In this document: in pieces, positions 17,159 to 42,908 of the stretch
How positions within the stretch are numbered: the stretch's first letter is position 1
How the letters are laid out: each line of letters begins with the position of its first letter
IMG/VR virus record: IMGVR_UViG_3300042569_001383
Coordinates: 88,125-144,950 of that record
Source of the DNA: a virus
Taxonomy: Duplodnaviria; Heunggongvirae; Uroviricota; Caudoviricetes
Length of the DNA: 56,826 nt
Direction: 5' to 3' (one strand)
Notes under the pieces: generated by a model
What the model was told of the DNA's origin: nothing
Databases searched by the model: none
What the model saw: the letters and a program-made list of their open reading frames with translations, nothing else
Translations under genes and position numbers: made by a program

Positions 17159-18811
17159 TTAAAGAGTATTTAATCCGTGAACGTATACTTTTCCGTAGAA
17201 TTCTGGTCTAACCACTTTCTTCGCGTAACGTGTCATGACACCTTTACGTGGAGTGAAGTTGATTGGATCATATACTAATGGAGTCATAATCAACGGAATA
17301 TAAGGGCTAAATACAGCACCTGTTTCAAGGAATTGTGTTCCTCTGAATCCCATTAAGATTATGTTTTCTTTCATGTATGGGTTTTTGTATACAGTGTAAC
17401 GGTTATTGATAGCACCAATTTTTTGTACACCTGCTGCAAATTCCATTTTAGTTCCGTCAGTGTCTGCTGCAAATCCTGGGATAGACTCAAGAATTGTTGC
17501 TACTGCTGGACTAGTTACAAGGAAGTTAGCTCCACCACGCAATGTTTTTTGGTGAATTTTGTTAGATACTTTTTGAAGTTTAGTACCTAATGTTTGGAAC
17601 CATCCACCTTGAGTGTTGTAGAATCCGTCACCTGTCGCAGTTTGTTGAGTAAATCCTGTACCATTCCAGATGTTGTTGTTTTTAGCTGACCAATACTCAG
17701 TTGTTGGTGCTGCAGAAATTAACATATCTAAAATTTCCAAGTCAATTTCCATAGAAACATACTCAGATAACATTGAAGTTAATTCAGCTTCAGCATCAAT
17801 TGAATGGTAAGCGTTTAAATCTTGTGCAAACTCAGGTGTCCAAACTGCTTTCAACTTACGTGTTTTAGCAACGATTGGCTCTGATTGCATTTCCAAGTTC
17901 AATTCAGGGATATCAATGTCAGTACCTTGGTTGATTCCAGACGCACCTGATCCTTTAAATGGATTGGTATCTTCAAAATCACCTCTAGTAATATCATCTG
18001 GTTGTTTGCTATATGCTACAACGTATGCAGAAGTACCATTTAATCCTGCTGATGCAGATACAACAAATTCAATTCTACCCGTAGATGCATTGTATTTTGT
18101 AAATGCTGGCAAGTTCATTGCTGTAGTAATTGCAGATCCTGAAGTTAAAATAAATGAACGAACCGCGGTTGAATCAAAGTTAGTTAATGATGCAGTTGAT
18201 GCATATACTACTGTGTATCCTGTTAAATTTGAAGTATAATCACTATCAAAATTAACTGATCCAGATCCTGCAGATGCTGCAGATGCTGTTGTTGCAGCAA
18301 CCGATGCAGTTACCGAGTTAATTGAATATCCAAAACGTCCTGCTCCATATAAACCACCTGACGGGTCATTTGATGTACTTGTTACACCGAATAAAGAGTC
18401 ATCTGCGTCTGGAGAACCAAATGGATCGCCTGTTCTGTTAAGATTACCATTATCATCATCAAATCCTGGTTGCGCTGTACCATATTTAAAATCTAAATAA
18501 AAGATTAGACCTGATGGCAAATTCATTGGTTGAACTGAAACGAATTCTTTTGCTGCAAATTCAGCGAAAATTCTACGTACCAATGGAAGTGCTACACCTG
18601 CCCACTCTTCAGATCCATTTGCTGTACCTGTTTGTGATGATTCTTTTACTAATTGACGTGCTTGGTTTTCAAGCAATTGTGCCATACCTGCTTTTTCAGT
18701 CTCTGTACGAAGACCTTCTAGCAATCCAGTTTTTTCCCATTTTACAATCGTTGATTTAACGGCTGCTCTTTGTGAATTATCTGGACTTTGTAATAATGAA
18801 TTTAAACTCAT
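17159..18811 (-). CDS. Major capsid protein (T4 gp23-like)
   Basis: LPLVRR, VSVQPMNLPSGLIFYLDFKY, VAKTRKLKAVWTPEFAQDLNAYH..DAEAEL..MLSEY..EID.EI, FSPYIPL, PRKGVMTRY. Confidence 0.97.
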   Translation of the reverse strand: MSLNSLLQSPDNSQRAAVKSTIVKWEKTGLLEGLRTETEKAGMAQLLENQARQLVKESSQTGTANGSEEWAGVALPLVRRIFAEFAAKEFVSVQPMNLPSGLIFYLDFKYGTAQPGFDDDNGNLNRTGDPFGSPDADDSLFGVTSTSNDPSGGLYGAGRFGYSINSVTASVAATTASAASAGSGSVNFDSDYTSNLTGYTVVYASTASLTNFDSTAVRSFILTSGSAITTAMNLPAFTKYNASTGRIEFVVSASAGLNGTSAYVVAYSKQPDDITRGDFEDTNPFKGSGASGINQGTDIDIPELNLEMQSEPIVAKTRKLKAVWTPEFAQDLNAYHSIDAEAELTSMLSEYVSMEIDLEILDMLISAAPTTEYWSAKNNNIWNGTGFTQQTATGDGFYNTQGGWFQTLGTKLQKVSNKIHQKTLRGGANFLVTSPAVATILESIPGFAADTDGTKMEFAAGVQKIGAINNRYTVYKNPYMKENIILMGFRGTQFLETGAVFSPYIPLIMTPLVYDPINFTPRKGVMTRYAKKVVRPEFYGKVYVHGLNTL

Positions 18812-21318: not shown

Positions 21319-21948
21319 TTATATCCTACATTTTCCATCTTCGCATAATATCGAGGTAATGATACCGTTTACGTCTGCGTATTTATTTTTTGTTATATTG
21401 TTATTAACTGATTCTCTTAGGCCCGTAGGCTTCATAAAAGCACCTTGCGTTGAAGGATTTGATACAAAGTCCCAACATATTAATTCAAAATCTTCTTGTA
21501 CTTCAACTGTGCCTTCATTTCTTAATTCTTTGACAGAACCTAATCCGCGAGATGAAATACCTAAAGTAATTCCGGCTTTGAACAATGATTTTAAAATATT
21601 ACCTGATGGTGTATCTAATATTTGAACTGCTCCTAATAAATCATTGCCTTCCCACCATATTTTTAAAATATTATGAGATACATTGTTTAAATTTACCACC
21701 ATCGATTCTGGGTGATCTAATTCTCCTAATGCACGGTGTTGGTCAATATATTCTTGTTGATATTTTTGACATTCACGCATTAATATATGTTTAGGATATA
21801 CGCGTCCGTTTTGATTTTTAGCACCAGCTCGTTGCAATACACCTTTTACAACATATCCACCCGGAATTCCGTATGAATCTCCAGATTGTTCATTCAATGA
21901 CCCAATTGGACGAAATGGCATATATTCTACAATTAATTGTTTTGACAT
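21319..21948 (-). CDS. Prohead maturation protease (T4 gp21-like, peptidase S77)
   Basis: VKGVLQRAGAKNQNGRVYP, ALGELDHPE, VSHNI, GISSRGLGSV, WDFVSNPSTQGAF. Confidence 0.96.
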   Translation of the reverse strand: MSKQLIVEYMPFRPIGSLNEQSGDSYGIPGGYVVKGVLQRAGAKNQNGRVYPKHILMRECQKYQQEYIDQHRALGELDHPESMVVNLNNVSHNILKIWWEGNDLLGAVQILDTPSGNILKSLFKAGITLGISSRGLGSVKELRNEGTVEVQEDFELICWDFVSNPSTQGAFMKPTGLRESVNNNITKNKYADVNGIITSILCEDGKCRI

Positions 21949-21949
21949 A

Positions 21950-22681
21950 TTACTCCCCTAATGCTCTTACTCGTTCTGATATTTTAATTAATCGTTCTGA
22001 TATTTTGTTTAATGCACGTGTCGTCGATGGTCCGTAATTTGAAGATGTAACTCCCGATTCAGTTTTTAATTTAGAATTGTAACCTACCAACGTTTCGATT
22101 TCACGCAATTTCATTGCAATTTCTTGTATTGTACGTTTAACTTTGGTTGATGGTTTATCATCTCCTTGTTTAAAATTACGATATGATTCGATAAGTTGTT
22201 CGTATTTAGAATCCATTGCTTCGTGTATTTTGTTTGTTTTATTTTTAACGCCGGACCAATCATATTCAACATGAGTTGTTTCTTGTACATGTGCCGGACG
22301 ATCGTCGTATTTTTTATATGTTTTTAATAATGGTTGCGTCGGATAATTAAATTTTCCATGTTGCCATGCATTATCATTATCTGCAAATGGAAATTTATCT
22401 ACATATTCTTCTTCTGCAGATTCTGGACGTTGATATTTCCCATATTGATAAGTTGGTGGCGTATTAACTGATTCACGAACTCGTTTCATGCCTAATACTT
22501 CTACCGTATCATCATCTGCTTTAGAAAATGCATTTGGTGTCATGTAACCGGCAACTCCCGCAGATGTGGATGCCTCTTCCAATTCATCCTCTTGTTGATT
22601 GTTTGCAATATCATCTATGATGTCATTGGTTTGATCAACTGCTTCGAATGCTTCTTCTATTTGTTGCAAAAACGTTTTCAT
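21950..22681 (-). CDS. Putative internal head protein
   Basis: Starts MKTFLQQIEE (capsid-targeting-like), has several hydrophobic-x-E sites and a coiled-coil C-terminus; lies between portal and protease. Confidence 0.65.
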   Translation of the reverse strand: MKTFLQQIEEAFEAVDQTNDIIDDIANNQQEDELEEASTSAGVAGYMTPNAFSKADDDTVEVLGMKRVRESVNTPPTYQYGKYQRPESAEEEYVDKFPFADNDNAWQHGKFNYPTQPLLKTYKKYDDRPAHVQETTHVEYDWSGVKNKTNKIHEAMDSKYEQLIESYRNFKQGDDKPSTKVKRTIQEIAMKLREIETLVGYNSKLKTESGVTSSNYGPSTTRALNKISERLIKISERVRALGE

Positions 22682-34587: not shown

Positions 34588-37500
34588 CAAACATGATTTA
34601 TTTGGCTGAAACCGTTATGTTTATCTACATTGATTAATGAATCAACCATATCTCGCATAGAATCTACGTGACTAATTATGATTGAAAAGTCAAATTTAGT
34701 ACGGAAATAATCAAACAAATTAACTACCGATGAAATATGTTCTGAATCTAACGAGCCCCATCCTTCGTCGATTGCAATAAAATTAGGTCTAGGCAATGCC
34801 GATACATTAATCAATGCAATTCTAATTGCCAATGAAGATATAAAACGTTCCATGCCGCTAGTTAATTCTAATGGCCAATAATTATCTTCATCATAAATAA
34901 TGTATCCGTTAATATTTTTACCATCAGTATTCATTACCATGTTGAAATCAACTATTTGGTTAAGTACATTGTTAATTTCAGCTTCAATTTTAGGTAATGC
35001 CTTTGTAACTAATTCATATGGAATTCCATCGCGTTTTACTGATTCTAAATAATATTCATATGCTTTGTATTCCGTTTCCAATGTTCGGTATCGTTCAAGT
35101 TGTTGCATTGCAGTTGATTTTTTTGTTTTTGCAACTTCAATCGCTCCATACATGTTTTTAATTTGAGTTTGAATCGTTTTGATTTCATTGCTAATGTCTG
35201 TAATGTTTTGTTTACATGTAGCAATTTGTTCATTAATTTGTATGTTGTGTTTAATTGCCGTTTCATTTTTCTTGAATGAATCTTGACGTTCAATCACAAT
35301 TTCCAATTCAGACTCGCGGGTTTGCAAATCGCTTTCTAATATTTGTAGTTGTAACTCATTGCGTTCTGCTGTAATATTTTCAGTTGCAAGTTTGTTACGT
35401 AATTCATTTAATTGTTCCGTTTTTTCAAAAACCGGTTTCAATTCTGTTATTTCTGAATTTAAACTTACAATTCGTTGTTTAGTGTTTTCTAATAAGTCTC
35501 TATCTTCTGTAATTGTGTTTTGTGCTTCAATTGCATTTTGTACGAAAACGTTAGATGTACAGTATTTACATTTCGGATCATATTCATGGTCGGAAAGATG
35601 ATTAATTTTTTCTTGTTTAGCATTTACTCGCTCCTGTTGTTGACGTAATTTTTGTAAAAGTATATTAACTGAATATTCTTTTTTCGAATATAATTCGGTT
35701 GCTGCATTAATAGCCGCAATATCATATTCTGCTAATTTTGTTTCACGTTCATCAATATTTGCATGTAACGTTTCTAAATCAAATTCCGCAGTTTCAATAT
35801 CCGTTTGTATTGATTCAATTAATTGAATTAAATCTTGTTCTTGTTTTTTTAATTCGTTGATATCTGGCCCATCATACGTTGTTGGCATTTTAGTTTCAAT
35901 CAATGAAACAATTCGTTCTTGTAAAACATTTCGCTGTTCTTGCAATACATCTTCTTTTGTTTCTAATGTATTAATGTTGTCTTGATTGTCAGAAATAATT
36001 GTGTCTGCAGTTATGATTATATCAGCAAAATCAGTTTTTTTATAATCTTTTAAACGTCCAGCTGTCTCTTTTATTTCATCGGCTGCCAATTGATACAATT
36101 GTTCAAACACCGTGATGTCTAAGAATTGTGAAAGTAAATCTTTGCGTTCTTTTTGCGATTTTTCAATGAAATTGTTATTGTCGGCTTGCAATGAAAATGC
36201 CGTTAAAATGAAATCATCATATGTTCCTAGATAACGACGAATGTTTTTATTTGTTTCACTACGTTCTTCTCCATTAAGATTATCAGCATCGGTATAAAAA
36301 TCCACATCAACTTTTACATGTGATTCTTTCTTTTTATTTTGAGTACCACGACGTTCGATAGTATAAATTGTGCCGTTCATTTCAAAACGAAATACACCTC
36401 GGAACCAAGTTTTTTTGTTGTTTAAAACTTCGTTTGCTTTTCCGGTTTTGCTACATTTATCAAATATCGTATAAGTTATTGCATCTAATAAACTAGATTT
36501 ACCTGAAGTGTTTGCCGCAAACAATCCGCAAACATTTGACAAATTTTCAAAATTAATTAAATTGCCTTCTCCATAAGAAAACATGTTGTCAAATTCAAAT
36601 GATACGGGATGCCATGTAGTATGGCGTATTGATTCTACTGCCGGCAGTTTTGAATTTATAGTTCTATTAATATGTCGTATAGCATCAACTTCTTCTGCAG
36701 TTGCTTGTGGAAAATTTGTATCAATATATTCTGTCAATAAAATATTTTGATATTCAACGTCACGTACATTTCCAATAGCCAAATTATTGCTAGTAGTTGC
36801 TGATGCATGTTCAATTGTGCGTTGAATTGTTATGTCTTGCACATCGTATTTTTTACGAATCGTTGCAATTAATTTTTTCATATCAGCCGCACTAGTGCCG
36901 TTAAACTTGATTCTAATTCTAGGTTTAACTGGCATACGATGTGGATGCGAAACAATTTTATCGCCTTGTGTTTCCAACGTCACATAACCGTAATCATTTT
37001 GTATTTGCGCAAATTCTGCTGTACGTGATTCTAAATCCCATACTAATATTCCATGGTCTAATGCTTCGCCATGATTTTGTTGTATCAAACTACCTGGATA
37101 TGCAATTGTTCTTGCATCATCTAAAAATTGAGCTGGTTTATGAATATCTCCTAACAAAGTAATATCATGTCCTGCAAACAATGCCGTTGTAACATGTTCA
37201 TTTGAAATTTGGTATCCAATATCAGTTTTCGCAGTATTTACAGCGCCATGATGCAATGCAATTTTATAACCTGCTTGAAAATCTTTAGCCATTACGTATT
37301 CAGCTGGCGTTTTATCTACTGCCATATGATTCCAAGTAACGCCTCCTAATTCAAACAATCCGTTCTCTTTAATAAAATAAATGTTTGGATTTCGTATAAC
37401 ATCTAAAACAGGACTAACTGCATCGACGCGATGCATATTATTCAAATTCATGTCATGATTACCAAGAATTACAATTGTAGGAATTGTAAATCCATTAAAA

Positions 37501-37733
37501 AAATCAACTAGCATTTGTACTAGTTCTGGCGACATATCCAATTTGCTATGAACTATATCCCCGGTAACTACTGCTATACTATTTCCGGTGCAATTCGCTT
37601 CAATGTAATCAAATAAATTTTGAAATACCGTACGATATTCGCCATGGCGTTTTAATGTTCTAATATGTATATCAGAAACATGAAATATTTTATCAATTTT
37701 ATCGATTCCGCAATCGATTTGTTTTATGTCCAT
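34587..37733 (-). CDS. Fused Mre11/SbcD nuclease + Rad50/SbcC ATPase (T4 gp47+gp46-like)
   Basis: DIH, TGDIVH, GNHD, HHG, GDIH phosphoesterase motifs; Walker A NTSGKSS; zinc hook CKYC within a coiled coil; TSGME signature; Walker B FIAIDEG; ISH. Confidence 0.93.
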   Translation of the reverse strand: MDIKQIDCGIDKIDKIFHVSDIHIRTLKRHGEYRTVFQNLFDYIEANCTGNSIAVVTGDIVHSKLDMSPELVQMLVDFFNGFTIPTIVILGNHDMNLNNMHRVDAVSPVLDVIRNPNIYFIKENGLFELGGVTWNHMAVDKTPAEYVMAKDFQAGYKIALHHGAVNTAKTDIGYQISNEHVTTALFAGHDITLLGDIHKPAQFLDDARTIAYPGSLIQQNHGEALDHGILVWDLESRTAEFAQIQNDYGYVTLETQGDKIVSHPHRMPVKPRIRIKFNGTSAADMKKLIATIRKKYDVQDITIQRTIEHASATTSNNLAIGNVRDVEYQNILLTEYIDTNFPQATAEEVDAIRHINRTINSKLPAVESIRHTTWHPVSFEFDNMFSYGEGNLINFENLSNVCGLFAANTSGKSSLLDAITYTIFDKCSKTGKANEVLNNKKTWFRGVFRFEMNGTIYTIERRGTQNKKKESHVKVDVDFYTDADNLNGEERSETNKNIRRYLGTYDDFILTAFSLQADNNNFIEKSQKERKDLLSQFLDITVFEQLYQLAADEIKETAGRLKDYKKTDFADIIITADTIISDNQDNINTLETKEDVLQEQRNVLQERIVSLIETKMPTTYDGPDINELKKQEQDLIQLIESIQTDIETAEFDLETLHANIDERETKLAEYDIAAINAATELYSKKEYSVNILLQKLRQQQERVNAKQEKINHLSDHEYDPKCKYCTSNVFVQNAIEAQNTITEDRDLLENTKQRIVSLNSEITELKPVFEKTEQLNELRNKLATENITAERNELQLQILESDLQTRESELEIVIERQDSFKKNETAIKHNIQINEQIATCKQNITDISNEIKTIQTQIKNMYGAIEVAKTKKSTAMQQLERYRTLETEYKAYEYYLESVKRDGIPYELVTKALPKIEAEINNVLNQIVDFNMVMNTDGKNINGYIIYDEDNYWPLELTSGMERFISSLAIRIALINVSALPRPNFIAIDEGWGSLDSEHISSVVNLFDYFRTKFDFSIIISHVDSMRDMVDSLINVDKHNGFSQINHV

Positions 37734-38668
37734 ATTAATCCCATTCTCAATTCCATAACTCGTTCAAAAGTTAAGATAGTTGTATTTTCTAAAATTTCTG
37801 TAATTTTTTCAAAACCTAATTCCGATGCATCTTCGTTTTTTAGTTCAACGAAATATACATTTAAGCCTTCACCCATAAACCGTTCAGCAATCGTTAACGC
37901 ATTTTTCAAAGCATCCGAATCTAAACAAATATAAATTTCTTTAACACGTTCTTGTATGATTTTCTTTTGCAATGCAGGTTGTATGATTTTTCCAAATAAT
38001 GGTATCGCATTGCGTTTAACGGCAATTGCATCAAATGATCCTTCACATAAAACAATTGGTTCAGACCAATTTATTAACATTTCAAAACCAATAATATCTT
38101 TAGAAATTTTAGGATTCTTATGTTTAAATTTATCTGCTTTATAATAAGCACGACTAACAAAATAATTTAATTGACCATCATTATCGTAACTAGGTATGAT
38201 TATTTTGCCGGAATATTCACCAGATTCGCAATATCCAATTCTGTATTTTAAAATATCAAATATTGTTATGCCTCGATTAGTTAAATAATGTATTGCATTA
38301 CGATAATCTGGTGTTGATTTTTTAATCCATAACGGAGAATATTCTGCTGGAATTTGTATGGATTGATTTGGCTTCGTGTCAGTTTCAGTAACGCGATATC
38401 GAGCCGATTCAATTATTCGATTTAATTGTTCGAATCGTTCTTTAGGTAAATTTAATTGTTTAAATAAAGACGCAATACTTCTACCTTTTTTATCTGAAAT
38501 CCAACAATGCCAAGCATTTTCTCCAGAACTAGTTGTATTGATATCAATTTCTAATTTTGGTTTGTAATGAGATTGAAACGGAGAAAAGAACGCAATATTA
38601 TTTCCGGAAGTAATTTTTCCTTTTCCTAATATTGATTCAAGTAATTGAAGTAATTTAAGATTCTTCAT
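37724..38668 (-). CDS. DNA primase (DnaG-like, TOPRIM)
   Basis: YL.NRGI, IIIPSYD..G.L.YFVSR, LCEGSFDAIAV, CLDSDA. Confidence 0.9.
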   Translation of the reverse strand: MKNLKLLQLLESILGKGKITSGNNIAFFSPFQSHYKPKLEIDINTTSSGENAWHCWISDKKGRSIASLFKQLNLPKERFEQLNRIIESARYRVTETDTKPNQSIQIPAEYSPLWIKKSTPDYRNAIHYLTNRGITIFDILKYRIGYCESGEYSGKIIIPSYDNDGQLNYFVSRAYYKADKFKHKNPKISKDIIGFEMLINWSEPIVLCEGSFDAIAVKRNAIPLFGKIIQPALQKKIIQERVKEIYICLDSDALKNALTIAERFMGEGLNVYFVELKNEDASELGFEKITEILENTTILTFERVMELRMGLIWT

Positions 38669-38869: not shown

Positions 38870-39349
38870 TCAGAAGAATTTTTTAATAACATGTGGAGAT
38901 TCGCCAGTTTTAACACATTCAGTTAACCATTCCGCAGGAATATCGCGTTTAGCAATATGTTTAATTCCTAATTTTTCAGCATAACTTTCATATGTAGTTT
39001 TGCTATTTTTTGAAATTTTTTGTGTAGGTGTTTGAAATACTAAACGAATATCGACGCCAGGATTTGATTGCAATACATGTTTCATTTTTAAACGATCAGC
39101 GCTAGTCCATCGTCCTTTAGTTTCAATATACATGAACGTGCCATCTTTTTTTGTAAATACAAAATCAGGTGTATATTTTGCTTTGCGTTCGGGTACAATA
39201 TAATTTATGATTTCCGTTTCATAATTCAAATCATATTCGGTACTTTTTATCCATTCCGCAACTGTATGTTCTAATCCGGATTTGTAACCGTATTTTAATG
39301 CCGCAGCACGTTTTGCGTTGCCGGCACTATGAAAGTGATTTTTTGCCAT
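38870..39349 (-). CDS. T7 endonuclease I-like Holliday junction resolvase
   Basis: YKSGLE, YE...I.Y.VP....KYTPDF, YIETKGRW...DR.KM. Confidence 0.92.
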   Translation of the reverse strand: MAKNHFHSAGNAKRAAALKYGYKSGLEHTVAEWIKSTEYDLNYETEIINYIVPERKAKYTPDFVFTKKDGTFMYIETKGRWTSADRLKMKHVLQSNPGVDIRLVFQTPTQKISKNSKTTYESYAEKLGIKHIAKRDIPAEWLTECVKTGESPHVIKKFF

Positions 39350-39380: not shown

Positions 39381-39926
39381 TCACCAATCTACTAATACTA
39401 TTTTATTGTTCCACATCATTACGTTTTGTGAACTGAAATCTAAATCTAAATCAAATTCCGGAATGTTTAATTTGTCAACATCTCGTTGCAATGCACGTAA
39501 AAAATTAACTAATTCGACTGACGTATCTCTTGCACCATCCGCATCCAGAAAATCAAATATTGAAACTTCGCCTCCTTCACTTCTTGCAAATTGTTTGAAT
39601 CGATTTAAAAAGGAATCAATTTGATTGACCATGTTCGACGAAATAGGATTGGCATTTGCCATTATAAACATATGTTCTTGGTCATTAACATAATACACCG
39701 GTATAAACGTTGTAAATTCATCCCAACGTCCTACAATACGAGTTGCAACTTCAAATTCATCTCGTTCGGTAGTAACTTTAAAAACTTTGTCTGCTCCGTT
39801 AATTTCATATACTCGACCATTATCACCGCGTCCAAGAAATTGGAATTGTTTGTTTCGTATTTTATCTAATAATTGAGAAACCTCTGATTCAGCAATTTCT
39901 GTTAATAATTGTTTTAAACGTATCAT
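39381..39926 (-). CDS. Minimal protein-kinase-like protein with N-terminal leader
   Basis: Gly loop LGRGDNGRVY, VFKVT (beta3 Lys), alphaC Glu, catalytic D-x4-N (DFSSQN), terminal LVDW. Confidence 0.8.
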   Translation of the reverse strand: MIRLKQLLTEIAESEVSQLLDKIRNKQFQFLGRGDNGRVYEINGADKVFKVTTERDEFEVATRIVGRWDEFTTFIPVYYVNDQEHMFIMANANPISSNMVNQIDSFLNRFKQFARSEGGEVSIFDFLDADGARDTSVELVNFLRALQRDVDKLNIPEFDLDLDFSSQNVMMWNNKIVLVDW

Positions 39927-41551
39927 GCTATATTCTTATCTAAATCTATTCTAATTAAAAAATTCATATCAACATCATTGCGTTTACGTATTGGTTGTGC
40001 CATTTTTCCGATAGCAAGAAGTTGACCTGCATCATCATACAATCCAACCGTAGTTATATATGGAGCAAACGCACTGCCAGTAGCAAATGTTCTGTACGTG
40101 ATATCATTATCTGCGGTTAATGATAAATTGCTTGAAACATTGAAATCGCTTGAGTCTACATTCGCAATTACATTAAGTTCATTAATAGTTTTTGTGCTTC
40201 GATATGAAGCTGTATACGGTAAATTTAAAATATCATTGAAACGATAATCCGGGGTTGATATTACAACTTGTCCTTGTTTAGCAAATACATTTCCGATACA
40301 ATTGGTTTGTAAAAATGTACCACCCTCGGTTCTATCAGATAAATATCCAATTTCAGATACAGTTAATGCTTTGTTAAATATGCGTATTTCGTCTAGTTTA
40401 CCTTGCAAATTCATTGACGTGGTATCGAACCCACCAATAAATAAATCCGAGTAATTATCGATCCTAGCAGATGCAGTAAATGGCGATTCATGATATTGTA
40501 ATAACGTGCTAGATGCCGATGCGTGTAAAGCCCCATTAACGTACATATGTAATGCACTGCCAGACTTTTGACACAATATATGCGTCCATGTATTAACTGC
40601 GACGGACGATGTTATAGTTAGTTTAAACGTAGTGCTACCCGCAGCTGAGAAAATTAATTGATTGCTTCCGCTTAATTCTACTCGGAATGGATATTGCGGT
40701 TGCAAAGAACTAGATGCTTTCGATAATACCAATTCATTTGCAGATGTCGTATTTGCTCCGGATATAAAAAATGATATTGCATAATTTACATCTCGAGAAT
40801 AGTCTCCATCTAATTTTGTTTGAATATAGCCCGCGCCATCGAATTGTGCACTTTTACCAATACTTGCAACTGTTCCATTAGTTGTTGCAATTCCATCAAC
40901 ATATGTAACACCGGAGCTATTATACGTGATTCTAGATGTATCAAAATATTCATTGAATCCTTCATAATACGTAACGCCAGATACAATTGAACTAGTAAGA
41001 AATGCTGTATTGTATAAATTTCCGTAACGATCTGATTTTATATACAATGGCAATGGGGTTCCACTATAACTACTAGTACCATACGTGCCTAAACCGTATA
41101 CCGTATTATCATTATAACTAGCAGTTAAAGTAAATGATGCTGGTTTTATGCCTTCTCCAACTTTAACCATTGGAAATGATAATATGGATGCTGATTCGAA
41201 CAATAATTTATTTGTGCGATTCAAATCAGTTGGACCGAATGTGTTGTATGGCTCTGTTTTTCTTTTGTAGAATAAATGATTAATCGAAAAATACGTAATT
41301 GTCTGCAATGAATTATCAATATTTTTTGCATCATTGTATATTAATTCAGTACCTAATGCTGGTAAAATATTTGTATCAGAATAAATTGCAGTTAATGGCA
41401 TTACACTACTAGTAGAGCTACCCGAAATTACAGTCCATGATTTATATGTTTGAAATGGATTAACTTTTACATCAGACTCACCAATCTTTTTAAAGACAGT
41501 TGGAGTTGGGCCTGTGTAATTATCCTGTTGTTTTATTTTTGATTCTGACAT
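39923..41551 (-). CDS. Baseplate/tail protein with LamG (ConA-like) domain
   Basis: WTHILCQKSGSALHMYVNG, LFIGG, QGKLDEIRIFNKAL; C-term PYITTVGLYD..QLLAIGK. Confidence 0.8.
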   Translation of the reverse strand: MSESKIKQQDNYTGPTPTVFKKIGESDVKVNPFQTYKSWTVISGSSTSSVMPLTAIYSDTNILPALGTELIYNDAKNIDNSLQTITYFSINHLFYKRKTEPYNTFGPTDLNRTNKLLFESASILSFPMVKVGEGIKPASFTLTASYNDNTVYGLGTYGTSSYSGTPLPLYIKSDRYGNLYNTAFLTSSIVSGVTYYEGFNEYFDTSRITYNSSGVTYVDGIATTNGTVASIGKSAQFDGAGYIQTKLDGDYSRDVNYAISFFISGANTTSANELVLSKASSSLQPQYPFRVELSGSNQLIFSAAGSTTFKLTITSSVAVNTWTHILCQKSGSALHMYVNGALHASASSTLLQYHESPFTASARIDNYSDLFIGGFDTTSMNLQGKLDEIRIFNKALTVSEIGYLSDRTEGGTFLQTNCIGNVFAKQGQVVISTPDYRFNDILNLPYTASYRSTKTINELNVIANVDSSDFNVSSNLSLTADNDITYRTFATGSAFAPYITTVGLYDDAGQLLAIGKMAQPIRKRNDVDMNFLIRIDLDKNIA

Positions 41552-41563
41552 GGTTAGTAAAAT

Positions 41564-41591
41564 CCCCGTTATACATATAAATATAACGGGG
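41564..41591 (-). terminator. 10-bp hairpin (probable terminator) overlapping a late promoter motif
   Basis: CCCCGTTATA-8nt-TATAACGGGG followed by ATTTT on the minus strand. Confidence 0.6.
41576..41584 (-). promoter_or_regulatory. Late promoter motif ATATTTATA inside a hairpin
   Basis: Upstream of the LamG gene and kinase. Confidence 0.6.
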
Positions 41592-41609: not shown

Positions 41610-42908
41610 TTAATAATCTAACTTAACACGAATCAATGCTTCACGTTGGAAAGATTTTAATAATGGTTTTGATAGTTTAGCAACTGCTAATAATTCTTGT
41701 GAATCATTATACAATCCAACCGTAGTAATATATGTCTTAGGATCGCCTACAAATGTTGTTTGTGAAATTTGTCCGACACTACCTGTTACATACGATGGAT
41801 TATTTGAGAAATTATATTCTGCATTTTTAACACGAACAAAATAATGTGTACTAGTAATTTTTTCTGAATTACGTGCTAAGAAACCATATGGATCTAATGT
41901 TGCTGGATTTGTTTGTAAAGCCGAACCTGATACTGAATGGAACAATGCAAAATGATTGTTACCTTCTGAACTAGAACCGGTATTGGTTTGGAAATTTAAT
42001 TGTTGATCCAACATTTTTCCATCTAATATCAATGTACCATAATCTGGATATGCTAATCCGTAATAAATTGGCGCTGTTGGATTATGTACTCCTCCATTAA
42101 TCGAACCAGATACGATGTTGTATATTTTTCCAGAATCTCCAATTGTTGCAGATGTTAATGATGAATCATCAATCAATGTAATGACACGCGAGCCTGATAC
42201 ATTTACACTTCCGGTTGCATTAGTAGGACGAGAACCAGAAATTGTCATTAATGGCAATTCCCAATTACCAGCATCTAAACGTTCTTTTAAACGATTACGC
42301 TTAAAGTTAACTACATAAATATAATCAGTGCTACCAGATCCTGCAGTTGTAAAACGACTATCATTTGGATTCAATAAAAGTTGACGGTATTGTGAATAAA
42401 TTGCTTTGCTAGGAGAATCATTAAGTTGTCCTTGCGAATCAGAACCACTACCTAATGCATGTCCAAATGCCAATGAATATTGTACAGCTGAACCCGTTGC
42501 TAATGGTGTTTTATGATATACATCAACATAATAACGACGTTGCGATGTTGTTTGAACTGACGATGTAAAAAATGTAGTTAAACTTGCTACATTGTCGGAC
42601 CATAAACCAGCTGTAACAGTTTCGGTTTGATTTGATACTACATCATTAGCTACATCAAACTTAGTAAATGTTCTTCCGTTTCTGGAAATAATTTGACCTT
42701 GTTGTTGTTCAGCAATCATTTGATTTGCTAATTGTTGAGCCAATTGTTGTACTTGTTCGTTGATAATAGCCGTAGATTGAGTAGTAGTATTTAGTGCATC
42801 TACATTTATCGCAGATACATTTCCTATTTGCAAACCACTTCTATCAAAATTTCTAGGTACACCACCTTGTTTAGGTTGTTGTTTTAAATACTTAGCTAAG
42901 TTATACAT
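41610..42908 (-). CDS. Baseplate/tail structural protein
   Basis: C-term YFVRVKNAEYNFSNNPSY..PKTYITTVGLYND.QELLAVAKLSKP, shared with the LamG protein. Confidence 0.75.
   Translation of the reverse strand: MYNLAKYLKQQPKQGGVPRNFDRSGLQIGNVSAINVDALNTTTQSTAIINEQVQQLAQQLANQMIAEQQQGQIISRNGRTFTKFDVANDVVSNQTETVTAGLWSDNVASLTTFFTSSVQTTSQRRYYVDVYHKTPLATGSAVQYSLAFGHALGSGSDSQGQLNDSPSKAIYSQYRQLLLNPNDSRFTTAGSGSTDYIYVVNFKRNRLKERLDAGNWELPLMTISGSRPTNATGSVNVSGSRVITLIDDSSLTSATIGDSGKIYNIVSGSINGGVHNPTAPIYYGLAYPDYGTLILDGKMLDQQLNFQTNTGSSSEGNNHFALFHSVSGSALQTNPATLDPYGFLARNSEKITSTHYFVRVKNAEYNFSNNPSYVTGSVGQISQTTFVGDPKTYITTVGLYNDSQELLAVAKLSKPLLKSFQREALIRVKLDY

What the first reader, a model, noticed from the sequence alone, without database searches (positions are those of the whole stretch)
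39381..39926. Stripped-down 181-aa kinase with a packaging-type leader, coupled to a baseplate gene
Seen: the N-lobe and catalytic motifs are complete (GxGxxG, Lys, Glu, D-x4-N, metal-binding Asp), but the chain stops one residue after that Asp (LVDW, then TGA TAA), so there is no activation loop or C-lobe tail. It begins MIRLKQLLTE and overlaps the LamG gene by ATGA. Established: phage kinases such as T7 gp0.7 phosphorylate host proteins and can blunt defences. Inference: an open, low-specificity kinase made late and delivered with the DNA.
Basis: partly seen in the sequence, partly recalled or inferred. Interest (0 to 1): 0.7.

Follow-up and report, generated by a model that had tools for sequence, protein, structure and literature searches.

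The report
Minimal phage kinase with capsid-targeting leader
This 181-residue phage gene encodes a complete but extremely cut-down protein kinase that ends right after its last catalytic residue, and it carries the short N-terminal tag that T4-type phages use to load proteins into the virus head, so it is probably injected with the DNA to phosphorylate host proteins, though neither activity nor packaging has been tested.

Summary
Window 39381..39926 (-) is a real 181-aa gene. It overlaps the upstream LamG structural gene by ATGA and ends LVDW-TGA-TAA.

- **Fold:** AlphaFold2 (pLDDT 90) gives a protein-kinase fold. Its last residue aligns with DFG+1 of BRAF, Mps1, PknB and CK2.
- **Conservation:** G34, G37, K50, E57, D163, N168 and D180 are invariant or nearly so down to about 25% identity.
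- **Not a truncation:** 730 homologues were found. All 118 full-length close ones end [LM][VI]DW, and 12 of 18 distant ones stop one residue after the Asp.
- **Relatives:** T7 gp0.7 kinase is the nearest studied relative (hhalign 93.7%). Iyer et al. 2017 predicted C-lobe-less kinases in phage polyvalent proteins, but Pfam PF18762 does not detect this family.
- **Leader:** MIRLKQLLTE matches the T4 capsid-targeting sequence MKTYQEFIAE at its functional positions 4, 7, 8 and 10. Six unrelated proteins of this 145-kb genome carry it, against 0.07 expected. A T4-type prohead protease is encoded in the window.

Best reading: an active minimal kinase that is packaged, cleaved and injected. I rate it a new variant of a known kind. 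First readers of this scan noted the same family on five other genomes. Activity, packaging and substrates are untested.

The parts
39381..39926 (-). CDS of the 181-aa minimal kinase (P0001), including the TGA stop at 39381..39383
   Evidence: 730 homologues; AF2 pLDDT 90.4; kinase-fold matches
39897..39926 (-). Codons 1-10, leader MIRLKQLLTE: putative capsid-targeting sequence with a prohead-protease site (LTE, followed by a second site IAE at residues 11-13)
   Evidence: I2, L4, K5, L8 and E10 are invariant in A1. 112 of 118 close homologues carry it. Six unrelated proteins in the genome carry it, against 0.07 expected. T4 CTS and its functional positions:
39807..39833 (-). Gly-rich ATP loop, residues 32-40 (GRGDNGRVY)
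   Evidence: G34 invariant and G37 at least 90% conserved in A2; aligns with the EGFR Gly loop and T7 gp0.7 LGNGHFSAAY
39756..39779 (-). Beta-3 Lys50 (VFKVT) to helix-C Glu57
   Evidence: K50, T52 and E57 invariant across 29 sequences at about 25% identity
39423..39440 (-). Catalytic loop D163-F-S-S-Q-N168 (D-x4-N)
   Evidence: D163 and N168 invariant in A2; aligns with T7 gp0.7 DMHSGN
39384..39389 (-). Metal-binding Asp180 and the terminal Trp181 (DFG-equivalent 'DW', then stop)
   Evidence: D180 invariant. All 118 full-length close homologues end [LM][VI]DW. Equivalent to CK2alpha D175-W176 and DFG+1 of BRAF, Mps1, PknB
39923..39926 (-). ATGA overlap: start codon of the kinase and stop codon of the LamG gene (translational coupling)
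   Evidence: the same 4-base overlap in L001 and L002
39923..41551 (-). Upstream 542-aa Laminin_G_3 structural gene, the last gene of the tail and baseplate block
   Evidence: Pfam PF13385 E 1.1e-17; baseplate-wedge genes upstream; synteny with immuto tail-fibre genes
41564..41591 (-). 11-bp GC-capped hairpin followed by ATTTT, 12 nt before the LamG ATG: a possible terminator that would set LamG plus kinase apart as one unit
   Evidence: It is the only such site in the region scanned, and the count is not above chance
38870..39349 (-). Downstream neighbour, T7-type endonuclease I, 31 nt after the kinase stop; marks the start of the DNA-metabolism block (primase, SbcCD-like)
   Evidence: Pfam PF05367 E 1.9e-32
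21319..21948 (-). T4-type prohead protease (Peptidase_S77), the enzyme expected to cut the leader
   Evidence: PF03420 E 1.2e-33, above the curated cut-off; phrog_207 E 2.2e-56
21950..22681 (-). 243-aa acidic protein next to the protease, starting MKTFLQQIEE (close to the T4 CTS MKTYQEFIAE); candidate prohead-core protein
   Evidence: position between portal and protease as in the T4 gene order

Best explanation
The gene encodes an active phosphotransferase with a protein-kinase fold that has lost everything after the metal-binding Asp. It keeps the ATP-binding N-lobe, the hinge, three helices, the catalytic loop (D163, N168) and the Mg-binding D180. It has no activation segment and no substrate-docking C-lobe, so the active site should be open and permanently 'on'. 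It is a distant relative of the T7 gp0.7 kinase. It is made as a precursor whose first 10 residues (MIRLKQLLTE) act like the T4 capsid-targeting sequence. That leader would take the protein into the scaffolding core of the prohead. The T4-type prohead protease would then cut after Glu10 (or Glu13), and the roughly 20-kDa mature kinase would leave the head with the DNA. In the newly infected cell it would phosphorylate host proteins before any phage gene is expressed, most likely for take-over or to blunt defences. Shown here: the fold, the conserved catalytic residues, the family-wide length, the reuse of the leader and the presence of the protease. Inferred: catalysis, packaging, cleavage, injection and substrates.
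For: Fold and length:
- AF2 model with pLDDT 90.4 and pTM 0.84, with kinase secondary-structure order.
- All top PDB matches are kinase-like: APH(2''), Lpg2603, PRPK, CK2, RIO, JAK3. VIA Z reaches 8.7, with model residue 181 aligned to DFG+1.
- G34, K50, T52, E57, D163, N168 and D180 are invariant in 29 sequences at about 25% identity.
- 730 homologues were found. All 118 full-length close ones end [LM][VI]DW. 12 of 18 distant ones also end one residue after the Asp.

Relationship to known kinases:
- hhalign to T7 gp0.7 residues 68-208 gives 93.7% probability, E 1.9e-7.
- Family members hit phrog_15752 (T7 kinase) and phrog_18305 'kinase'.
- T7 kinase is hyperpromiscuous and anti-defence (PMC13645617).

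Leader:
- The T4 CTS is MKTYQEFIAE (PMC8442874). Targeting depends on residues 4 and 7, processing on residues 8 and 10 (PMC9026906). This gene has L4, L7, L8 and E10.
- Six proteins with no homology beyond the leader carry it, against 0.07 expected. One is a lysozyme-LysM protein and one is ParB/Srx-like.
- Phage immuto has 3 strict matches against 0.18 expected, including its syntenic mini-kinase gp093, which starts MISIYNILKE.
- Leaderless mini-kinases exist in phage CBB, so the leader is an add-on module.

Head machinery and expression:
- A T4-type protease, portal and major capsid protein are in the window.
- The capsid-protein propeptide has LLE sites at residues 32 and 48.
- The gene is coupled by ATGA to a structural gene, and this is conserved in relatives.
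Against: - There are no virion proteomics, activity data or expression data for any member.
- The mature protein is acidic (pI 4.5), whereas T4 internal proteins are basic.
- One leader-bearing protein is a lysozyme-LysM that could simply be the endolysin. That would fit head packaging poorly.
- The gene sits at the boundary with the DNA-metabolism block, 31 nt before endonuclease I, so late expression is not proven.
- The only cultured orthologue, immuto gp093, has Ser at the catalytic-Asp position.
- No kinase that stops at DFG+1 has been shown to be active.
- Neither Pfam Pkinase, PF18762 nor any other Pfam model detects this protein.
Confidence: 0.45

Rival explanations
1. It is the same active minimal kinase, but it works in the cytoplasm of the infected cell and is not packaged. 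The shared leader would then have another role, for example a common N-terminal helix for regulation, oligomerisation or membrane contact.
For: The gene lies at the junction with endonuclease I, primase and SbcCD-like genes. Related mini-kinases of phage CBB lie among tRNAs and small accessory genes and have no leader. T7 gp0.7 is an expressed early protein, not a virion protein. The mature protein is acidic. A leader-bearing lysozyme-LysM could be the endolysin.
Against: The leader has the register of the T4 CTS at all four functional positions. Six unrelated proteins share it, against 0.07 expected. Its codons differ at synonymous sites, which points to selection on the peptide. The genome has the T4-type protease. 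The gene is coupled to a structural gene, and this is conserved in relatives.
Confidence: 0.25
2. It is a kinase, or an ATPase or nucleotidyltransferase, for a non-protein substrate such as a sugar, lipid, nucleotide, nucleic-acid end or antibiotic-like molecule, using the kinase-like ATP site.
For: The best Foldseek hits include small-molecule kinases APH(2''), APH(4) and PsiK, and the ATPase-like PRPK/Bud32. SAICAR synthetase scores Z 7.5. The lobe that docks protein substrates is missing. One family member weakly hits Choline_kinase. Distant multidomain relatives combine these units with a cytidylyltransferase-like domain. The genome has DNA-modification and glycan loci according to earlier notes (not tested here).
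Against: Small-molecule kinases of this fold bind their substrate with a C-terminal helical subdomain, which is also absent here. The nearest characterised homologue by sequence is a protein kinase, T7 gp0.7. The profile's sequence matches in the PDB are protein kinases: EGFR, CK2 and MSK1.
Confidence: 0.15
3. It is a pseudokinase: an ATP-binding or purely structural head-core or cargo protein without catalysis.
For: The cultured orthologue immuto gp093 has Ser at the catalytic-Asp position and a 40-residue deletion. The absence of helix F and the rest of the C-lobe could destabilise a catalytic spine.
Against: Every catalytic residue (K50, E57, D163, N168, D180) is invariant across the family down to about 25% identity. 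That pattern is expected for enzymes, not for pseudokinases.
Confidence: 0.08
4. It is a truncated remnant of a longer kinase gene, or a chance open frame.
For: None beyond the unusual stop right after the Asp.
Against: 730 homologues were found, the best 120 of 163-182 aa. All 118 full-length close ones end DW. Distant relatives and the internal units of tandem arrays end at the same place. The fold is predicted with high confidence.
Confidence: 0.01

Closest known systems
Phage T7 gp0.7 protein kinase (T7K; phrog_15752, Pfam PF27024)
   Same: It is homologous over the Gly loop, the beta-3 Lys and the catalytic D-x4-N (hhalign 93.7%, E 1.9e-7, T7 residues 68-208). Both are phage kinases with a very short region after the metal-binding Asp: the T7K kinase domain is taken as residues 1-242, with DPV at 213-215 (PMC13645617). 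T7K is hyperpromiscuous and counters host defences.
   Different: T7K is 359 aa, with a C-terminal DNA-binding shut-off domain. It has DPV instead of DW-stop and no CTS-like leader, and it is an early expressed protein. No Pfam model, PF27024 included, matches P0001 at E up to 1.
Kinase-PolyVal (Pfam PF18762), the kinases of phage and plasmid polyvalent proteins (Iyer, Burroughs, Anand, de Souza, Aravind 2017, PMC5512222)
   Same: The family is described as kinases that lost the entire C-terminal subdomain but keep the active site. It is found in (pro)phages of Bacteroidetes, including stand-alone versions, and was proposed to be delivered with the DNA and to act like the T7 kinase. Distant relatives of the present family occur as 2-6 tandem units in multidomain phage proteins. 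One of them, P0179, passes the PF18762 cut-off.
   Different: PF18762 does not detect P0001, any of the 29 members of A2, or anything in this genome. The published signature residues (Glu before strand 2, Gln in the last N-lobe strand, a catalytic His) are not evident in P0001 when read by eye. The present family is stand-alone with a CTS-like leader, which that paper does not describe.
T4 internal proteins IPI, IPII, IPIII and Alt with the capsid-targeting sequence
   Same: All have a 10-residue N-terminal leader with hydrophobic residues at 4, 7 and 8 and Glu at 10. The leader is shared by otherwise unrelated proteins, and a T4-type (S77) prohead protease is encoded nearby. Alt is a precedent for an injected host-modifying enzyme.
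   Different: The cargo here is a kinase, and it is acidic rather than basic. Packaging and cleavage are not shown. The phage is only distantly T4-like; its nearest cultured relative is Flavobacterium phage immuto.
Other minimal kinases: Bud32/PRPK, RIO kinases, Legionella Lpg2603
   Same: They are structural neighbours with a reduced C-lobe, and the profile also hits Lpg2603 weakly.
   Different: All of them keep helices after the DFG Asp. None ends at DFG+1. TM-scores are only 0.33-0.44 by query.

Membership tests
Protein-kinase-like superfamily (fold level) | N-lobe of five strands plus helix C, a hinge, then helices leading to the catalytic loop and two short strands before the metal-binding Asp | tested here: met
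   AF2 secondary-structure order. Foldseek probability 0.97-1.00 to APH, CK2, RIO, PRPK and JAK3. VIA Z 8.0-8.7, rmsd about 4 A over 123-133 residues.
Protein-kinase-like superfamily (fold level) | Catalytic residues: Gly-rich loop, beta-3 Lys, helix-C Glu, catalytic Asp and Asn (D-x4-N), metal-binding Asp | tested here: met
   G34, K50, E57, D163, N168 and D180 are invariant, and G37 is at least 90% conserved, in A2.
Eukaryotic-type protein kinases (Pfam Pkinase PF00069) | Activation segment, APE motif, and helices F to I of the C-lobe | tested here: not met
   The chain ends at DFG+1. No Pfam hit for P0001 at E up to 1. Only 5 of 29 family members give sub-threshold Pkinase hits.
Kinase-PolyVal (PF18762) | Match to the Pfam model above its curated cut-off | tested here: not met
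   No match for P0001 or any A2 member at E up to 10. No match in the six-frame search of the genome. Only the distant relative P0179 passes, at 34.4 bits against a cut-off of 27.
Kinase-PolyVal (PF18762) | Loss of the whole C-terminal subdomain with the active site intact; found in phage polyvalent proteins and as stand-alone forms in Bacteroidetes phages | tested here: met
   for the architecture. Tandem and multidomain relatives. The nearest cultured phage infects Flavobacterium. The definition comes from PMC5512222.
Kinase-PolyVal (PF18762) | Signature residues: Glu before strand 2, Gln in the last N-lobe strand, an insert between the catalytic His and Asp | tested here: inconclusive
   They are not evident by eye in P0001 (D35-N36 before strand 2; MFIMA in strand 5; no His in LDLDFSSQN). 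The authors' alignment was not available for a proper mapping.
T7 gp0.7-type kinase | Sequence homology of the kinase core | tested here: met
   hhalign 93.7%, E 1.9e-7. Three A2 members hit phrog_15752 with a best E of 6e-6.
T7 gp0.7-type kinase | DPV motif and the C-terminal shut-off (DNA-binding) domain | tested here: not met
   The protein ends with DW and then a stop, so there is no C-terminal domain. Motif and domain are as described in PMC13645617.
T4-type capsid-targeted internal proteins | N-terminal leader of about 10 residues with targeting residues at 4 and 7 and processing residues at 8 and 10 ([LI]-x-E) | tested here: met
   MIRLKQLLTE against MKTYQEFIAE. I2, L4, K5, L8 and E10 are invariant in A1.
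T4-type capsid-targeted internal proteins | The same leader on unrelated proteins of one phage, and a T4-type prohead protease in the genome | tested here: met
   6 of 179 ORFs against 0.07 expected, with no homology beyond the leader. PF03420 E 1.2e-33.
T4-type capsid-targeted internal proteins | Presence in the mature virion with the leader removed, and ejection into the host | not testable with these tools
   This needs virion mass spectrometry and infection experiments. No proteomics of immuto or relatives was found in the library.

The most novel reading that the evidence does not exclude
This lineage of abundant aquatic T4-like phages may load its head with a set of separately tagged enzymes: a minimal kinase, a lysozyme-LysM protein, a ParB/Srx-like protein and an HExxH protein. 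That is much the same domain repertoire that other phages string together in polyvalent proteins. The kinase, a DFG-terminated relative of the hyperpromiscuous T7 kinase, would then be delivered ready-made. It would phosphorylate and disable host defence or nucleic-acid-binding proteins before any phage gene is transcribed. It would also be the smallest catalytically competent protein kinase known.
Probability: 0.3. Interest if true: 0.8.

Novelty: new variant of a known kind. Interest (0 to 1): 0.58.

Why it matters
If the protein is active, it shows that about 170 residues ending at the metal-binding Asp are enough for phosphotransfer. That bears on what the kinase C-lobe is needed for. If it is packaged, it would be a pre-emptive version of the T7 kinase strategy, which was recently shown to disarm many defence systems: the enzyme would arrive with the DNA instead of being made afterwards. 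The family has at least 730 members at the 90%-identity cluster level and occurs on contigs of up to 161 kb. It has no Pfam model and no source annotation beyond 'hypothetical protein', so a large group of aquatic phage genes could be named. The shared leader also gives a simple sequence rule for predicting the injected proteome of these phages.

Tried and rejected
- **Sequence searches on the single protein:** Pfam gave nothing at E up to 1. phmmer against the PDB gave only a chance sugar-binding-protein hit. tblastn against 50,697 phage records gave no match. Relatives in cultured phages appeared only with the family profile.
- **PF18762:** the search of the own genome gave no match.
- **Homodimer test:** residues 11-181, two copies, with ATP and Mg riding along. 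The machine was busy twice. The run that completed returned 'no answer', which is not evidence either way. I had sent it because tandem arrays of the domain suggested that units might pair.
- **Truncation or pseudogene reading:** rejected.
- **Leader as an RNA or DNA-level element:** rejected as the main explanation. The codons vary at synonymous positions (CGT/CGA/CGG, TTA/TTG, GAA/GAG). The upstream DNA is shared by only 3 of the 6 genes. The 15-mer atatttattaatATG is not enriched in the window.
- **Promoter scan:** the sigma-70 scan is uninformative here, with 28 sites found against 26.5 expected.
- **Virion-proteome check in RaK2 and CBB:** their mini-kinases lie in accessory tRNA-rich regions and lack the leader. 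They do not test packaging of this family, so I did not pursue it.
- **Literature:** searches for a published kinase that ends at DFG+1, or for a virion-borne phage kinase, found none in the library.

Full report
**The observation**

Window 39381..39926 (minus strand) is an ATG-started ORF of 181 codons (P0001). It begins MIRLKQLLTE and ends LVDW, followed by TGA and then TAA. Its start codon overlaps the stop of the upstream 542-aa gene (39923..41551) by ATGA. That upstream gene carries a Laminin_G_3 domain (E 1.1e-17). Thirty-one bases downstream begins a T7-type endonuclease I gene (PF05367, E 1.9e-32). It is followed by a primase and an SbcCD-like fusion protein. Upstream lie baseplate-wedge genes. 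All genes run on the minus strand. The window is the last 56.8 kb of a single 144,950-bp phage contig. Its nearest cultured relative is Flavobacterium phage immuto, which is only weakly similar.

**It is a real, conserved gene and not a truncation**

A word-indexed search found 730 homologues. The best 120 are 163-182 aa long and 60-97% identical. They come from metagenomes, on contigs of up to 161 kb, and carry no annotation beyond 'hypothetical protein'. All 118 full-length ones end [LM][VI]DW. An exhaustive profile search of 1.84 billion representatives added distant relatives of 160-230 aa. Twelve of the 18 full-length ones also stop exactly one residue after the same Asp. The gene order LamG, kinase, endonuclease I, primase, SbcCD and the 4-base overlap recur in a 134-kb relative (L001) and in L002.

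**It has a kinase fold with a complete catalytic set**

AlphaFold2 on a 24-sequence alignment gave pLDDT 90.4 and pTM 0.84. The predicted order of elements is:
- an N-terminal helix (residues 2-24);
- three strands;
- helix C (55-64);
- two strands;
- three helices (97-153);
- two short strands (169-178).

Every high-ranking Foldseek match in the PDB is a kinase-like protein: APH(2''), Lpg2603, PRPK/Bud32, PsiK, CK2, RIO1/2 and JAK3. An independent all-against-all structural search gave Z up to 8.7. Model residue 181 aligned to DFG+1 of BRAF (595), Mps1 (665), PknB (157) and TBK1 (158). The Z-scores are middling. The consistency of the register is what carries weight.

In an alignment of 29 sequences that reaches about 25% identity, the only invariant residues are G34, K50, T52, E57, D163, N168 and D180, and G37 is at least 90% conserved. 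With the exception of T52, these are the Gly-loop, beta-3 Lys, helix-C Glu, catalytic Asp and Asn, and metal-binding Asp. The family profile aligns its last 57 positions to CK2alpha 119-175, whose DFG motif is DWG. The protein thus has everything needed to bind ATP-Mg and transfer phosphate. It has none of the activation segment or helices F to I.

**Relatives**

No Pfam model detects P0001. Family members hit phrog_4301 (unknown function), phrog_18305 ('kinase') and phrog_15752, the T7 gp0.7 kinase. A profile-profile comparison with T7 gp0.7 gives 93.7% probability (E 1.9e-7) over T7 residues 68-208, aligning the Gly loop, the Lys and DMHSGN with LDFSSQN. T7 kinase has recently been shown to be hyperpromiscuous and to disarm many defence systems. 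In that work its kinase domain is taken as residues 1-242, with DPV at 213-215 in place of DFG (PMC13645617).

Iyer et al. 2017 (PMC5512222) had already described, by computation, a clade of kinases in phage 'polyvalent proteins'. These have lost the entire C-terminal subdomain while keeping the active site, and stand-alone versions occur in Bacteroidetes phages. The kind is therefore known. The Pfam model built from that clade (PF18762) does not detect P0001, any of the 29 aligned members, or anything in this genome. Only one distant bridge protein, P0179, passes it. I therefore treat the present family as a sister or very divergent branch, not a demonstrated member.

Predicted viral structures show many other short phage kinases of 140-230 aa, from CBB, RaK2, Yaphecito, Lacusarx and Cellulophaga phi19:3, as well as T7-like kinases.

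**The leader**

The T4 capsid-targeting sequence is MKTYQEFIAE (PMC8442874). Targeting depends mainly on residues 4 and 7, and processing on residues 8 and 10 (PMC9026906). P0001 has L4, L7, L8 and E10, and a second site, IAE, follows directly. I2, L4, K5, L8 and E10 are invariant among close homologues, and 112 of 118 carry the leader.

In this genome six of 179 ORFs start with M-x(1,2)-L-x2-[LI]-[LIF]-x-E, against 0.07 expected from the internal frequency of the motif. The six share no similarity beyond the leader, apart from a short C-terminal tail common to two of them (noted under passing observations):
- a Phage_lysozyme plus LysM protein;
- a ParB/Srx-like protein (weak hits to SbnI and ParB PHROGs);
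- a protein with an HExxH motif (read by eye only);
- two small proteins of unknown function;
- the kinase.

The leader codons differ at synonymous sites, so selection acts on the peptide.

The window encodes a T4-type prohead protease (PF03420, E 1.2e-33), a portal, a large terminase and a major capsid protein. The capsid protein's propeptide holds LLE sites at residues 32 and 48. The protein next to the protease starts MKTFLQQIEE.

Phage immuto has three strict matches to the leader motif against 0.18 expected. One is gp093, a 146-aa syntenic orthologue of the kinase. It starts MISIYNILKE, ends IIDV, lies just before the primase, and scores 99.3% by hhalign. The two mini-kinases of phage CBB lie among tRNA genes and have no leader. 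The leader thus behaves as a separable module.

The leader-bearing set (a kinase, a muralytic enzyme, a ParB-like protein and a possible metallopeptidase) resembles the domain repertoire that Iyer et al. assign to polyvalent proteins and propose to be delivered with the DNA.

**Mechanism proposed, and its limits**

I propose the following sequence of events. The precursor is made from a unit coupled to a structural gene. It enters the prohead core through the leader. The protease cuts after Glu10 or Glu13. The roughly 20-kDa kinase leaves with the DNA and phosphorylates host proteins at once. It needs no activation loop and has an open substrate site.

None of these steps is shown. Several points count against the proposal:
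- the mature protein is acidic (pI 4.5);
- the leader-bearing lysozyme could be an ordinary endolysin;
- the gene lies at the border with DNA-metabolism genes;
- immuto gp093 has Ser at the catalytic-Asp position;
- no kinase that ends at DFG+1 has been assayed.

The rivals are a cytoplasmic kinase whose leader has another role, a non-protein substrate, and a pseudokinase.

**Passing observations**

Distant relatives form arrays of 2-6 mini-kinase units in proteins of 430-1440 aa. Each unit ends IDLGxS, followed about 12 residues later by P-[PV]-[VMI]-[LI]-E, which looks like a processing site. One such protein also holds a cytidylyltransferase-like domain. Two leader-bearing genes also share a C-terminal tail.

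**Earlier notes of this scan**

First readers flagged the same family on five other genomes. Follow-up agents described CTS-like leaders on enzyme sets in several other phages. These notes agree with my reading, but they are not independent evidence. I tested the leader enrichment, the family conservation and the fold here.

**Verdict**

This is a new variant of a known kind, C-lobe-less phage kinases related to the T7 kinase. It is distinguished by ending at DFG+1 and by a T4-type capsid-targeting leader.

Noticed in passing
Proteins P0207, P0202, P0201, P0223, P0166, P0179 (metagenomic; locus L008 8001-12320 for P0207): Phage proteins of 430-1440 aa hold 2-6 tandem mini-kinase units. Each unit ends IDLGxS, followed about 12 residues later by P-[PV]-[VMI]-[LI]-E, a possible protease site between units. 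P0202 also has a cytidylyltransferase-like domain. P0207 lies beside DNA polymerase A and RecA genes.
   Followed up: partly
Genome G000:C1 34644-35393, 36997-37713, 37713-38045, 71113-71565, 71572-71991 (all minus strand, outside the window; loci L015, L016): Five further proteins start with the same leader (MVSLKSLIIE, MIRLTTLLVE, MKLMNLLFE, MIRLRHILKE, MIRLKDILKE). They are an HExxH protein, a lysozyme-LysM protein, a 110-aa protein, a ParB/Srx-like protein and a 139-aa protein. The last two also share a C-terminal tail, YD[WA]SGIDTPG[DN]P[NI]M.
   Followed up: partly
window 21950..22681 (-): The acidic 243-aa protein next to the prohead protease starts MKTFLQQIEE, very close to the T4 CTS MKTYQEFIAE. 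It also contains YDWSG, which resembles the shared tail of the two leader-bearing genes above.
   Followed up: no
window 17159..18811 (-): The N-terminal region of the major capsid protein has LLE at residues 32 and 48, candidate T4-type maturation sites.
   Followed up: no
L014 2867-3307 (Flavobacterium phage immuto gp093, NC_055915 103366-103806): This is a cultured-phage orthologue of the mini-kinase, 146 aa, with the leader MISIYNILKE. It has a 40-residue deletion in the helical part and Ser where the family has the catalytic Asp, so it may be inactive. Neighbouring immuto genes start with other recurrent leaders (MKKSxLxxxIKE, MENFDLKKFLVEN).
   Followed up: partly
L031 5205-5789 and 5808-6314 (Pectobacterium phage CBB gp535, gp534): Two adjacent leaderless mini-kinases (194 and 168 aa; gp534 ends DFGIYG) lie in a tRNA-rich accessory region of a jumbo phage.
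   Followed up: partly
window 41564..41591 (-): A strong hairpin (11 bp, CCCCGTTATA...TATAACGGGG) followed by ATTTT lies 12 nt before the LamG start codon. It could be a terminator of the preceding 432-aa gene or a translational element.
   Followed up: no
window 37724..38668 (-): The primase begins MKNLKLLQLLES, which resembles the leader although it is shifted in register. A packaged primase would be odd. Unexplained, and possibly chance.
   Followed up: no
window 39923..41551 and 41610..42908 (-): The LamG protein and the preceding 432-aa protein share a C-terminal motif (YITTVGLY[DN]D..[QE]LLA.[GA]K...P). From memory this resembles tail-fibre and collar domains of other phages; I did not test it.
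   Followed up: no
Genome G000:C1, upstream of the starts at 35393, 38045 and 71991: Three of the six leader genes are preceded by the identical 12-mer atatttattaat directly before the ATG. It is not enriched in the window.
   Followed up: partly
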